A stretch of 64,000 nucleotides of DNA from Escherichia coli (GTDB lineage Bacteria > Pseudomonadota > Gammaproteobacteria > Enterobacterales > Enterobacteriaceae): assembly GCF_003334765.1 (NCBI RefSeq), contig NZ_QOWT01000005.1, one strand, 5' to 3'. A program made the position numbers and the translations under genes. How positions within the stretch are numbered: position 1 is the stretch's first letter; every line of letters begins with the position of its first letter. The notes below the pieces were generated by a model. That model made no database searches, was not told where the DNA came from, and saw nothing but the letters and a program-made list of their open reading frames with translations. Shown here one piece after another: positions 49,955 through 50,518 of this stretch.

Positions 49955-50518
49955 ATGATGTCATCTCGTTTGATTATTGCGCTGATTATCATGCTCTTAG
50001 CCCAGGGTGTGCAGGCACACAATTTCGTCACTGGCAAAACGGTTACCCCCGTTTATATCCAGGAAGGCGGCGAGCTGCTTCTGAATAGCGACGACGAAAT
50101 TCACTACCAAAAGTGGAACAGCACACAGCTGGCGGGAAAAGTCCGCATTATCCAGTATATCGCCGGGCGTAAGTCGGCGAAGAAAAAGAACTCACTGTTA
50201 ATTAAAGCGGTTGAAGCGGCAAACTTTCCGCAGGATCGTTTTCAGCCCACCACCATTGTGAACACCGATGATGCCATCTTTGGTACTGGCTATTTTGTCG
50301 TTGGCAAAATCGAAAAAAATAAACGCCGCTATCCGTGGGCGCAATTCGTTATTGACGGCAATGGACTGGGACGCGTTGCCTGGCGGTTGCCGGAGCAGAG
50401 TTCAACCATTCTGGTGCTGAATAAAGACGGGCAAATTCAGTGGGCAAAGGACGGCAGCCTGACGCCGGAAGAGGTAGATCATGTCATTGCGCTGGCGCAG
50501 AAACTGATCAATGAATAA
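49955..50518 (+). CDS. Secreted/periplasmic protein, YtfJ-like (187 aa)
   Basis: Signal peptide MMSSRLIIALIIMLLAQGVQA; overall resemblance to the YtfJ family is from memory and unverified. Confidence 0.6.
   Translation: MMSSRLIIALIIMLLAQGVQAHNFVTGKTVTPVYIQEGGELLLNSDDEIHYQKWNSTQLAGKVRIIQYIAGRKSAKKKNSLLIKAVEAANFPQDRFQPTTIVNTDDAIFGTGYFVVGKIEKNKRRYPWAQFVIDGNGLGRVAWRLPEQSSTILVLNKDGQIQWAKDGSLTPEEVDHVIALAQKLINE

What the first reader, a model, noticed from the sequence alone, without database searches (positions are those of the whole stretch)
49955..50518. Signal-peptide protein (YtfJ-like) inside the locus
It has a clear N-terminal signal peptide with an AxA-type cleavage site (VQA-HN), so it should act in the periplasm. 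It could be a periplasmic lipid-binding or shuttle component working with the LptF/G-like permeases.
Basis: partly seen in the sequence, partly recalled or inferred. Interest (0 to 1): 0.4.

Follow-up and report, generated by a model that had tools for sequence, protein, structure and literature searches.

The report
Periplasmic YtfJ paralog in sphingolipid locus
This is a real gene for a secreted, cysteine-free thioredoxin-fold protein, a second copy of the uncharacterised E. coli protein YtfJ, that stays inside the sphingolipid synthesis and export gene cluster of enteric bacteria, so it is a testable candidate helper for that pathway; nothing shows it to be a lipid shuttle.

Summary
Window 49955-50518 (+) encodes a 187-aa protein; the start is more likely 49958. 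It matches the YtfJ family above the curated cut-offs and has a Sec-type signal peptide (…VQA|HN). The window is E. coli chromosome, and the gene lies in the known sphingolipid locus (yghT/S/R, yghQ, a 274-aa ORF, this gene, lptF2, lptG2, spt, acpR, cerR, aasR, yghO). That locus is present in about 77% of complete E. coli genomes and deleted in K-12.

The protein is a paralog ("YtfJ2", 55% identical) of the core periplasmic protein YtfJ. It is under purifying selection. It was inside the sphingolipid locus in all 17 non-K-12 loci whose gene content was tabulated, through four gene arrangements, always next to yghQ and the 274-aa ORF but not always next to lptF2G2.

The AlphaFold model (pLDDT 95.5) is a TlpA/ResA/DsbE-type thioredoxin fold with no cysteine. 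It is not an Lpt β-jellyroll or a LolA-like carrier.

The periplasmic location and the link to the locus are supported. The "lipid shuttle" role is not, though it is not excluded. My best guess (inferred) is a redox-dead binding protein that handles the flipped, probably anionic, sphingolipid.

It is a new member of a known family of unknown function, of moderate interest.

The parts
49955..50518 (+). ytfJ2: the YtfJ-family ORF (187 aa from the ATG at 49955; the likelier start is the ATG at 49958, 186 aa; stop codon 50516-50518)
   Evidence: RefSeq start at 49958; dN/dS 0.09-0.135
49949..49952 (+). GGAG ribosome-binding site, 5 nt before the ATG at 49958 and 2 nt before the ATG at 49955
   Evidence: sequence read directly
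49955..50017 (+). Signal peptide (residues 1-21: MMSSR / LIIALIIMLLA / QGVQA), predicted signal peptidase I cleavage after VQA
   Evidence: family-wide N-terminal hydrophobic segment; the AxA|HNF junction is conserved in both YtfJ lineages
50018..50515 (+). Mature domain (166 aa, pI 9.1, no Cys): N-terminal beta-hairpin plus thioredoxin fold of the TlpA/ResA/DsbE type
50162..50191 (+). Family motif A70-G-R72-K-S74-A75-K-K-K-N79 at the end of strand 63-70 and the start of helix 73-77. This is the place where redox-active relatives carry CxxC; here it reads R-K-S-A.
   Evidence: conservation in alignment A1; secondary structure; equating it with the CxxC position is my inference from fold topology
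50313..50319 (+). A7 homopolymer inside the ORF; A6 variants in public assemblies give a 153-aa frameshifted product
47773..49122 (+). yghQ, a MOP-family flippase-like membrane protein; with the next ORF it forms the unit that always neighbours ytfJ2
49122..49946 (+). 274-aa ORF with no Pfam or NCBIfam match; all-helical CHAD-like fold. Its start overlaps the yghQ stop and it ends 8 nt before ytfJ2.
50549..51619 (+). lptF2, an LptF paralog (29% identical to K-12 LptF), 30 nt downstream of ytfJ2
51616..52695 (+). lptG2, an LptG paralog (28% identical to K-12 LptG); its start overlaps the lptF2 stop
52693..52727 (.). 16-bp GC-rich hairpin between the convergent lptG2 and spt genes; probable end of the operon that contains ytfJ2
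52730..56844 (-). spt-acpR-cerR-aasR ceramide-synthesis genes (spt 597 bits against NCBIfam serine palmitoyltransferase)
   Evidence: biochemistry of the E. coli BL21 orthologs in PMC9386255
45358..47727 (.). yghT (-), yghS (+) and yghR (+): three P-loop kinase-like genes that travel with the locus

Best explanation
ytfJ2 encodes a soluble periplasmic protein. It is exported by Sec, and its signal peptide is cut after VQA (21 residues counted from the ATG at 49955).

The mature protein is a redox-dead thioredoxin-fold protein of the TlpA/ResA/DsbE type. It has no cysteine at all. Arg-Lys-Ser-Ala sits where relatives carry CxxC, and Ser sits where ResA has its cis-proline.

It is a specialised duplicate of the core enterobacterial periplasmic protein YtfJ, and it became a fixed part of the Enterobacterales sphingolipid locus.

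Proposed mechanism (inferred, not shown). Ceramide is made by Spt/AcpR/AasR/CerR/YghO. It is then given an anionic, probably phosphorylated, head group by the cytoplasmic YghR/S/T kinase-like proteins and the CHAD-like 274-aa protein. After the YghQ flippase moves this lipid to the periplasmic leaflet, YtfJ2 uses the conserved polar and aromatic groove at the former active site (R72, S74, N79, N103, D106, D134, W54, W143) to bind or process the head group. The extra lysines specific to the locus copy (K77, K118, K121) would add to this binding. The lipid would then be ready for extraction by LptB-LptF2G2 and passage to the outer membrane.

Shown here: the gene, family, signal peptide, fold, loss of redox residues, purifying selection and conserved linkage. 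Inferred: periplasmic location, any role in the sphingolipid pathway, the ligand, and the order of steps.
For: - Family and signal peptide.
- No Cys in the query. No Cys in 87 of 106 locus-type and 103 of 106 housekeeping mature sequences.
- Conserved residues fall on the loops that build the canonical thioredoxin active-site face.
- Linkage: all 17 non-K-12 loci tabulated carry the gene in the sphingolipid locus, in four arrangements. At least 19 further YtfJ2-type proteins share their longest-contig length with a homolog of the 274-aa ORF.
- Operon structure: gaps of -1, 8, 30 and -7 nt (the last counted from the ATG at 51613; -4 from the annotated lptG2 start at 51616), with a terminator only after lptG2.
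- Selection: dN/dS 0.09-0.135.
- Ten positions are fixed differently in the locus-type and housekeeping lineages. Three are Lys gains, and median mature pI is 9.3 versus 8.1.
- In Caulobacter, LptF2/G2 are needed once anionic sphingolipid is made, and the periplasmic steps are unknown (bioRxiv 10.64898/2026.04.12.717747).
- Housekeeping ytfJ has a sigma-E promoter and is listed as periplasmic (PMC4447067).
Against: - No experiment and no ligand are known for any YtfJ-family protein. No solved structure of the family was found.
- The family is not tied to sphingolipids in general. Four distant members are stand-alone genes in unrelated contexts. The housekeeping copy is conserved in K-12 and Salmonella; K-12 lacks the locus, and I did not check Salmonella for it. 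Whatever YtfJ proteins bind may therefore be a general envelope component.
- The two Caulobacter papers read describe that sphingolipid locus without mentioning any YtfJ-like gene.
- The final E. coli sphingolipid is unknown, so 'anionic head group' is itself an inference.
- ytfJ2 is among the least constrained genes of the locus.
- I could not inspect the model coordinates. The groove and the clustering of conserved residues are argued from topology, not measured.
Confidence: 0.4

Rival explanations
1. YtfJ2 is a periplasmic lipid carrier that takes the whole sphingolipid, acyl chains included, from LptF2G2 and ferries it across the periplasm.
For: - Periplasmic targeting.
- It sits directly upstream of lptF2-lptG2 in E. 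coli, Citrobacter, Serratia and Erwinia billingiae.
- The periplasmic carrier for bacterial sphingolipids is unknown.
- The mature protein has several conserved aromatic residues (W54, W128, W143, Y51).
- Some peroxiredoxin-fold proteins, such as Tpx and Prdx6, bind lipid substrates (my own knowledge).
Against: - The fold is thioredoxin-like. It is not an Lpt beta-jellyroll and not LolA/MlaC-like.
- The mature protein is hydrophilic (GRAVY -0.39, pI 9.1).
- In Rosenbergiella, Erwinia endophytica, an Enterobacterales MAG and the Sodalis-like locus, lptF2G2 are not co-transcribed with it.
- LptF2/G2 keep their own periplasmic domains and in Caulobacter use LptB. The authors favour re-use of the LptA/D/E bridge, which leaves no need for a soluble shuttle.
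Confidence: 0.15
2. Passenger gene. YtfJ2 is a duplicate of the housekeeping ytfJ that landed in the locus. It does the same sphingolipid-independent envelope job as YtfJ and is carried along only by position.
For: - 55% identity to YtfJ, with the same conserved motif set.
- The family is mostly stand-alone genes with no conserved partners.
- It has the highest amino-acid divergence in the locus among Escherichia species (86-91% against 92-99% for its neighbours).
Against: - It is retained in every non-K-12 locus examined, through four different rearrangements and across several families of Enterobacterales.
- It is under purifying selection.
- Ten lineage-specific fixed differences include three Lys gains.
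- Erwinia, Pantoea and Sodalis species have a separate, much more distant YtfJ (42-44% to the query) beside locus-type copies at 62-69% in other members of those genera.
- It is tightly packed in the operon.
Confidence: 0.15
3. Functional stand-in for LptC2. YtfJ2 docks on LptF2G2 and couples them to the LptA bridge, replacing the LptC2 that only Caulobacter species have.
For: - The E. coli locus has lptF2 and lptG2 but no lptC-like gene.
- LptC2 is reported as restricted to Caulobacter.
- YtfJ2 is similar in size to LptC (about 190 aa; my own knowledge) and has an N-terminal hydrophobic segment.
Against: - The fold is not a beta-jellyroll.
- The N-terminal segment is short (11 hydrophobic residues) with a good VQA cleavage site, so it is not an LptC-type membrane anchor.
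- It is uncoupled from lptF2G2 in two arrangements.
Confidence: 0.05
4. Redox enzyme. It is a periplasmic thiol-disulfide oxidoreductase or peroxiredoxin, for example supplying reducing power to a periplasmic ceramide reductase or detoxifying lipid peroxides.
For: - The best structural matches are DsbE, ResA, CcmG, Tpx and Bcp.
- A paper notes the puzzle of how CerR, reported there as periplasmic, obtains a reductant.
Against: - The protein has no cysteine at all, and the family has no conserved Cys.
- ResA's cis-Pro position is Ser.
- E. coli CerR starts directly with its Rossmann motif and has no signal peptide.
Confidence: 0.02

Closest known systems
E. coli YtfJ (b4216; Pfam PF09695 YtfJ_HI0045 / NCBIfam TIGR01626)
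   Same: - Same family and length, 55% identical over 184 residues.
- Same signal-peptide design with the A-x-A|H-x-F junction.
- Same conserved motif set: G39, W54, AGRxSA...N, N103, D106, D134, G137, W143, G167.
- Both lack cysteine in the mature protein.
- Function is unknown for both.
   Different: - YtfJ is a stand-alone core gene between ytfI and ytfK, conserved at 82-99% across Enterobacteriaceae. It is reported to have a sigma-E promoter.
- The window gene is an accessory copy inside the sphingolipid locus.
- It is more basic (median mature pI 9.3 against 8.1) and has ten lineage-specific fixed differences.
- It is absent from K-12.
TlpA/ResA/DsbE(CcmG)-type periplasmic thioredoxins and AhpC/TSA peroxiredoxins
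   Same: - Weak sequence signal to ResA over the C-terminal half.
- Extracytoplasmic location.
   Different: - Only 9-16% identity.
- No CxxC and no peroxidatic Cys; the protein has no Cys at all.
- Ser replaces ResA's cis-Pro.
- It therefore cannot work by thiol chemistry. It resembles redox-inactive thioredoxin-fold binding domains such as the PDI b/b' domains (my own knowledge, not tested).
LptC2 (CCNA_01226 / CC_1168) and LptF2/LptG2 of the Caulobacter crescentus sphingolipid locus
   Same: - Envelope genes embedded in a sphingolipid locus next to LptF/G paralogs.
- A proposed role in moving anionic sphingolipid outward.
- Like LptF2/G2, YtfJ2 is a locus-specific duplicate of a core envelope gene.
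   Different: - LptC2 is a beta-jellyroll LptC homolog with a membrane anchor and is restricted to Caulobacter. YtfJ2 is a secreted thioredoxin fold restricted, as far as seen here, to Enterobacterales.
- YtfJ2 is a much younger duplicate: 55% to YtfJ, against 28-29% for LptF2/G2 versus LptF/G.
- There are no genetic or biochemical data for YtfJ2.

Membership tests
YtfJ family (Pfam PF09695 YtfJ_HI0045; NCBIfam TIGR01626) | Full-length match to the family profile above the curated threshold | tested here: met
   TIGR01626: 216 bits against a cut-off of 151.1, residues 2-185 on profile positions 1-183 of 184. PF09695: E 1.9e-59.
YtfJ family (Pfam PF09695 YtfJ_HI0045; NCBIfam TIGR01626) | Single-domain protein of about 185 aa with an N-terminal signal peptide | tested here: met
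   187 aa; signal-peptide anatomy; 98 of 102 family members have the hydrophobic N-terminal segment.
YtfJ family (Pfam PF09695 YtfJ_HI0045; NCBIfam TIGR01626) | Family-conserved residues present (G39, W54, A70-G-R72-x-S74-A75, N79, N103, D106, G110, D134, G137, W143, G167) | tested here: met
   All are present in the query; conservation measured on 102 sequences.
Redox-active thioredoxin superfamily (TlpA/ResA/DsbE, AhpC/TSA) | Thioredoxin fold | tested here: met
   [not shown]
Redox-active thioredoxin superfamily (TlpA/ResA/DsbE, AhpC/TSA) | Catalytic CxxC motif or peroxidatic cysteine | tested here: not met
   Zero Cys in the protein and no conserved Cys in the family. It is therefore not filed as an oxidoreductase.
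Redox-active thioredoxin superfamily (TlpA/ResA/DsbE, AhpC/TSA) | cis-Proline loop opposite the active site | tested here: not met
   In the profile-ResA alignment, the ResA 'LP-TTF' proline aligns with the family's Ser-Ser (S149/S150). The match is weak (E 0.06), so this is moderately secure.
Lpt bridge proteins (LptC/LptA, OstA-like beta-jellyroll) | Beta-jellyroll fold | tested here: not met
   The model is an alpha/beta thioredoxin fold. There is no Pfam or NCBIfam LptC/LptA match.
Lpt bridge proteins (LptC/LptA, OstA-like beta-jellyroll) | Uncleaved N-terminal membrane anchor (LptC) | tested here: not met
   Short 11-residue h-region followed by VQA|HN, which fits the -3/-1 rule. This is rule-based, with no experimental check.
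Periplasmic lipid carriers (LolA/LolB, MlaC) | Carrier fold with a hydrophobic cavity | tested here: not met
   [not shown]
Enterobacterales-type bacterial sphingolipid locus (spt-acpR-cerR-aasR-yghO with lptF2G2, yghQ, yghRST) | The gene lies inside the locus and is conserved in other locus-positive genomes | tested here: met
   17 of 17 non-K-12 loci, in four arrangements. The block is present in 4176 of 5426 complete E. coli genomes.
Enterobacterales-type bacterial sphingolipid locus (spt-acpR-cerR-aasR-yghO with lptF2G2, yghQ, yghRST) | The gene is required for synthesis or export of the lipid | not testable with these tools
   This needs genetics and lipidomics. No paper in the searched library mentions the gene.
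Sphingolipid loci in general (Caulobacter/Sphingomonas type) | A YtfJ-like gene present in alpha-, beta- and other gammaproteobacterial sphingolipid loci | not tested
   The papers read list the Caulobacter-type gene sets without such a gene. I did not fetch those loci. Four distant YtfJ members are not in sphingolipid loci.

The most novel reading that the evidence does not exclude
YtfJ2 is the missing periplasmic component of sphingolipid export in Enterobacterales. It would work at the hand-over between the YghQ flippase and LptB-LptF2G2. The locus duplicates core envelope-lipid machinery (LptF, LptG and YtfJ). By the same logic, the sigma-E-controlled core protein YtfJ would be an unrecognised accessory factor of LPS or outer-membrane lipid transport. 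This would give a first function to a conserved orphan family built on a cysteine-free thioredoxin fold.
Probability: 0.15. Interest if true: 0.75.

Novelty: new member of a known kind. Interest (0 to 1): 0.42.

Why it matters
[quoted passage not shown] The April 2026 Caulobacter preprint shows that LptF2/G2 with LptB are involved. It states that the periplasmic and outer-membrane steps are unknown and that LptC2 is confined to Caulobacter.

About three quarters of complete E. coli genomes, including BL21 and UTI89, carry a sphingolipid locus whose product has not been described in the papers I could search. Within that locus, ytfJ2 is the only gene with a cleavable signal peptide. It is retained through every rearrangement seen here. 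That makes it a cheap and specific genetic target: delete it in spt+ and spt- backgrounds.

If it matters for the pathway, it would also give the first functional handle on the YtfJ family. It would be an example of a thioredoxin scaffold re-used without redox chemistry in envelope lipid biogenesis. If it does not matter, it is simply a paralog of an orphan periplasmic protein that is already correctly named in RefSeq.

Tried and rejected
- Sequence search of the PDB with the protein and with the family profile found no solved relative, only a weak ResA match.
- The single genome-contig scan returned only 11 loci, because exact peptide patterns limit its reach. A wide census of locus-positive genomes was therefore not possible.
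- Neighbour-joining trees with 200 bootstraps gave a monophyletic housekeeping Enterobacteriaceae clade (93%). The order between it and the locus-type clades is unresolved (support 10-51%). I do not claim which copy is ancestral. I note only that locus-type copies from Erwinia, Pantoea and Sodalis species (62-69% to the query) are far closer to Enterobacteriaceae YtfJ than the separate, more distant YtfJ proteins found in other species of those genera (42-44%).
- Contexts of four distant family members showed no recurring partner. One lies directly upstream of mdoG, a single case.
- I considered the idea that a periplasmic thioredoxin-fold protein could feed electrons to CerR, which one paper reports as periplasmic. 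I rejected it because the protein has no Cys.
- I considered LptC-like and LolA-like roles and rejected both on fold.
- The 153-aa frameshift allele, seen in 120 contigs, is A6 instead of A7. In two of the three contigs examined, neighbouring genes are also fragmented. I treat it as probably a homopolymer assembly error, not proven pseudogenisation.
- Literature searches for YtfJ, yghQRST and the BL21 locus tags ECD_02855-02859 found no functional study.
- I did not attempt a fused-chain AlphaFold run for complexes. The tool returns no inter-chain confidence, and the paired alignment would have had fewer than 20 rows.
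Full report
**1. What is in the sequence**

Window 49955-50518 (+) is an uninterrupted 187-codon ORF. 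It matches the YtfJ family end to end. NCBIfam TIGR01626 gives 216 bits against a curated cut-off of 151.1. Pfam PF09695 gives E 1.9e-59.

The N-terminus has the three regions of a Sec/signal peptidase I signal peptide:
- MMSSR (n-region);
- an 11-residue hydrophobic core, LIIALIIMLLA (h-region);
- QGVQA, with V at -3 and A at -1, before HN (c-region).

The rest of the protein is hydrophilic. The maximum 19-residue hydropathy window is 0.8 and the mature pI is 9.1. It contains no cysteine, so it cannot be a lipoprotein.

The GGAG at 49949-49952 is 2 nt from the first ATG and 5 nt from the second. The RefSeq start at 49958 is therefore more likely.

dN/dS against three other Escherichia species and Citrobacter enshiensis is 0.09-0.135.

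**2. Where it is**

The window is E. coli chromosome. The 3.6-kb block around the ORF is 100% identical to several strains. It is present in 4176 of 5426 complete E. coli genomes.

The RefSeq annotation of an identical strain gives this gene order:
- pitB | yghT (-) | yghS yghR | a 'lipopolysaccharide biosynthesis protein' (full-length yghQ, a MOP flippase-like protein) | a hypothetical 274-aa protein | 'YtfJ family protein' | 'lptF' 'lptG';
- then, convergent: spt, an acyl carrier protein, an NAD-dependent epimerase-family protein and a fatty acyl-AMP ligase;
- then yghO and glcC.

K-12 strains match only 36% of the 13-kb locus, and an IS5 element is annotated at the junction. K-12 has therefore lost the middle of the locus, including this gene.

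The spt/acpR/aasR genes of E. coli BL21 have been shown biochemically to make 3-oxo-sphinganine. Together with the reductase and yghO, they are described as the five dihydroceramide genes (PMC9386255). A 2026 preprint shows the E. coli UTI89 locus beside that of Caulobacter. It demonstrates in Caulobacter that LptF2/LptG2 form a complex, bind LptB, and cannot be deleted while anionic sphingolipid is made. It states that the periplasmic and outer-membrane steps are unknown and that LptC2 is confined to Caulobacter. Neither these papers nor any other in the searchable library mention the YtfJ-like gene.

Within the window, the genes from yghS to lptG2 are tightly packed. The last four gaps are -1, 8, 30 and -7 nt (the last counted from the ATG at 51613; -4 from the annotated lptG2 start at 51616). 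The only strong hairpin lies after lptG2 at 52693-52727. G+C content is E. coli-like, so this is not a recent import.

**3. It is a paralog of YtfJ**

The protein is 55% identical to K-12 YtfJ (b4216). YtfJ is a stand-alone core gene conserved at 82-99% across Enterobacteriaceae.

The query's closest relatives (59-72% identity) come from Citrobacter, Pseudocitrobacter, Serratia, Erwinia, Klebsiella indica, Shimwellia, Sodalis and others.

In bootstrapped trees the housekeeping Enterobacteriaceae clade is monophyletic (93%). Its position relative to the locus-type sequences is unresolved.

Erwinia, Pantoea, Sodalis and Yersinia species also have YtfJ proteins that are only 42-48% identical to the query. 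Locus-type copies from other species of the first three genera are at 62-69%. The locus-type gene therefore appears to have travelled with the locus and to be most closely related to the Enterobacteriaceae core gene.

It is a much younger duplicate than the permeases. LptF2 is 29% identical to LptF, and LptG2 is 28% identical to LptG.

Ten positions are fixed differently in the two lineages. Three are lysines gained in the locus type (K77, K118, K121). Median mature pI is 9.3 against 8.1.

**4. Conservation of the neighbourhood**

I fetched loci around 17 locus-type homologs outside K-12 and located all locus genes, by tblastn or from the Pfam content of the called genes. Every one lies in a sphingolipid locus.

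Four arrangements occur:
- A. Escherichia and Citrobacter: as in the window.
- B. Serratia and Erwinia billingiae: the aasR-cerR-acpR-spt module is moved upstream in the other orientation, but yghS-R-Q, the 274-aa ORF, ytfJ2 and lptF2-G2 are kept.
- C. Five Rosenbergiella species, an Enterobacterales MAG and Erwinia endophytica: lptG2-lptF2 are transcribed divergently from yghQ, the 274-aa ORF and ytfJ2.
- D. A Sodalis-like contig: ytfJ2 directly follows spt and is convergent with the 274-aa ORF and yghQ.

ytfJ2 is thus always adjacent to the pair formed by yghQ and the 274-aa ORF. It is adjacent to lptF2 in only two of the four arrangements.

At least 19 further YtfJ2-type proteins share their longest-contig length with a homolog of the 274-aa ORF, a crude sign that they lie on the same contig.

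By contrast, four distant family members (39-45% identity) are stand-alone genes in unrelated contexts. The link to sphingolipids therefore belongs to this lineage, not to the family.

**5. Fold**

With a 102-sequence alignment, AlphaFold2 gives mean pLDDT 95.5 and pTM 0.88. The model has the signal helix, then a beta-hairpin (34-43, 49-55), then a beta-alpha-beta-alpha-beta-beta-alpha thioredoxin core.

The redox apparatus is gone:
- There is no Cys in the query and none conserved in the family.
- The conserved AGRxSA...N motif occupies the strand-to-helix junction where CxxC normally sits (the equivalence is my inference).
- ResA's cis-proline aligns with serine.

The family's most conserved residues (G39/E40, W54, R72, S74, N79, N103, D106, G110, K123, D134, G137, W143, G167) lie largely on the loops that form the canonical active-site face. 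That argues for a retained binding or catalytic site with different chemistry. I could not measure this on the coordinates.

**6. The neighbours**

Three observations suggest that the lipid made by this locus has a phosphorylated, anionic head group, as in Caulobacter:
- this CHAD-like protein;
- the three P-loop kinase-like proteins YghR/S/T;
- a DgkA-like gene in one locus.

This is an inference. The E. coli product is not described in the papers I could search.

**7. How it most likely works**

Shown:
- a secreted protein;
- a cysteine-free thioredoxin fold;
- purifying selection;
- fixed membership of the Enterobacterales sphingolipid locus, with lineage-specific basic substitutions.

Inferred: the protein acts in the periplasm on the flipped sphingolipid. 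It would bind, or possibly process, the anionic head group at the former active-site groove, between the YghQ flippase step and extraction by LptB-LptF2G2. I give this 0.4.

Rivals:
- a true lipid shuttle (0.15; the fold argues against it but does not exclude it);
- a passenger copy doing YtfJ's sphingolipid-independent job (0.15; conserved linkage argues against it);
- an LptC2 substitute (0.05; wrong fold, cleavable signal peptide);
- a thiol redox enzyme (0.02; no Cys).

Background on the housekeeping copy fits an envelope role but says nothing specific. It has a sigma-E promoter and is listed as periplasmic (PMC4447067). It is ppGpp-dependent in Salmonella, in a list that includes yhbN (PMC3022708).

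**8. Comparison with what is known, and novelty**

The gene is correctly named in RefSeq as a YtfJ family protein, so its identity is not new. Three things are not in the literature I could search:
- it is a distinct, locus-bound paralog;
- it is a redox-dead TlpA/ResA-type fold;
- it is the only signal-peptide protein conserved in the Enterobacterales sphingolipid locus, tied most tightly to the flippase and the CHAD-like gene pair.

I classify it as a new member of a known kind, a family of unknown function.

Interest is moderate (0.42). The finding would not surprise a specialist, but it gives a concrete, cheap experiment on an explicitly open question. The most novel reading not excluded is that it is the missing periplasmic factor, and that core YtfJ has a parallel role in LPS or outer-membrane lipid transport. 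I rate that at about 0.15 probability and 0.75 interest if true.

Noticed in passing
[not shown]
   Followed up: partly
window 50549-52695 and 45358-46937; L001 21428-23574 and 16237-17816: RefSeq names the locus permeases 'lptF' and 'lptG, LPS export ABC transporter permease' because they pass the equivalog cut-offs (320 and 305 bits). They are only 29% and 28% identical to the real K-12 LptF and LptG. YghT and YghS are named 'dTMP kinase' although they score 24-25 bits against a cut-off of 83. Both names are likely over-annotations.
   Followed up: partly
K-12 records H37/H38 against window 45300-58500: K-12 strains match only 36% of the 13-kb locus, in three pieces, with an IS5 element annotated between the yghQ and yghO remnants. 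The laboratory strain has lost ytfJ2, lptF2G2 and the ceramide genes. This may be why the locus is little studied.
   Followed up: partly
window 50313-50319; L024, L025, L026 around 3355: An A7 run inside ytfJ2 is A6 in a 153-aa frameshifted product seen in 120 contigs. In two of the three contigs inspected, neighbouring genes (lptF2, the 274-aa ORF) are also split. Homopolymer assembly error is likelier than real pseudogenes, but one metagenome scaffold has only ytfJ2 affected.
   Followed up: partly
window 52693-52727: A 16-bp GC-rich hairpin (10 G-C pairs) sits in the 34-nt gap between the convergent lptG2 and spt genes. The scan called it on the minus strand; it could terminate both operons.
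   Followed up: no
L021 1252-1611: In the Sodalis-like version of the locus, a DgkA-type (PF01219) lipid kinase gene lies between yghR and yghO. E. coli DgkA is known to phosphorylate ceramide in vitro (my own knowledge), so this may be the ceramide kinase of that locus.
   Followed up: no
L019 819-3021: A distant YtfJ-family gene (P0140, 42% identity by phmmer to the query) lies 50 nt upstream of an MdoG (periplasmic glucan synthesis) gene on the same strand. This is a single case on a 3-kb contig.
   Followed up: no
L006-L009 compared with window 45358-56844: Among Escherichia species, ytfJ2 is the most diverged protein of the locus (86-91% identity, against 92-99% for most neighbours). It has one of the highest dN/dS values (0.09-0.135), together with cerR and yghS.
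   Followed up: yes
L001 1-98: In the RefSeq record, the gene labelled exbB carries the product name 'tol-pal system-associated acyl-CoA thioesterase'. This looks like a gene/product mismatch in the annotation.
   Followed up: no
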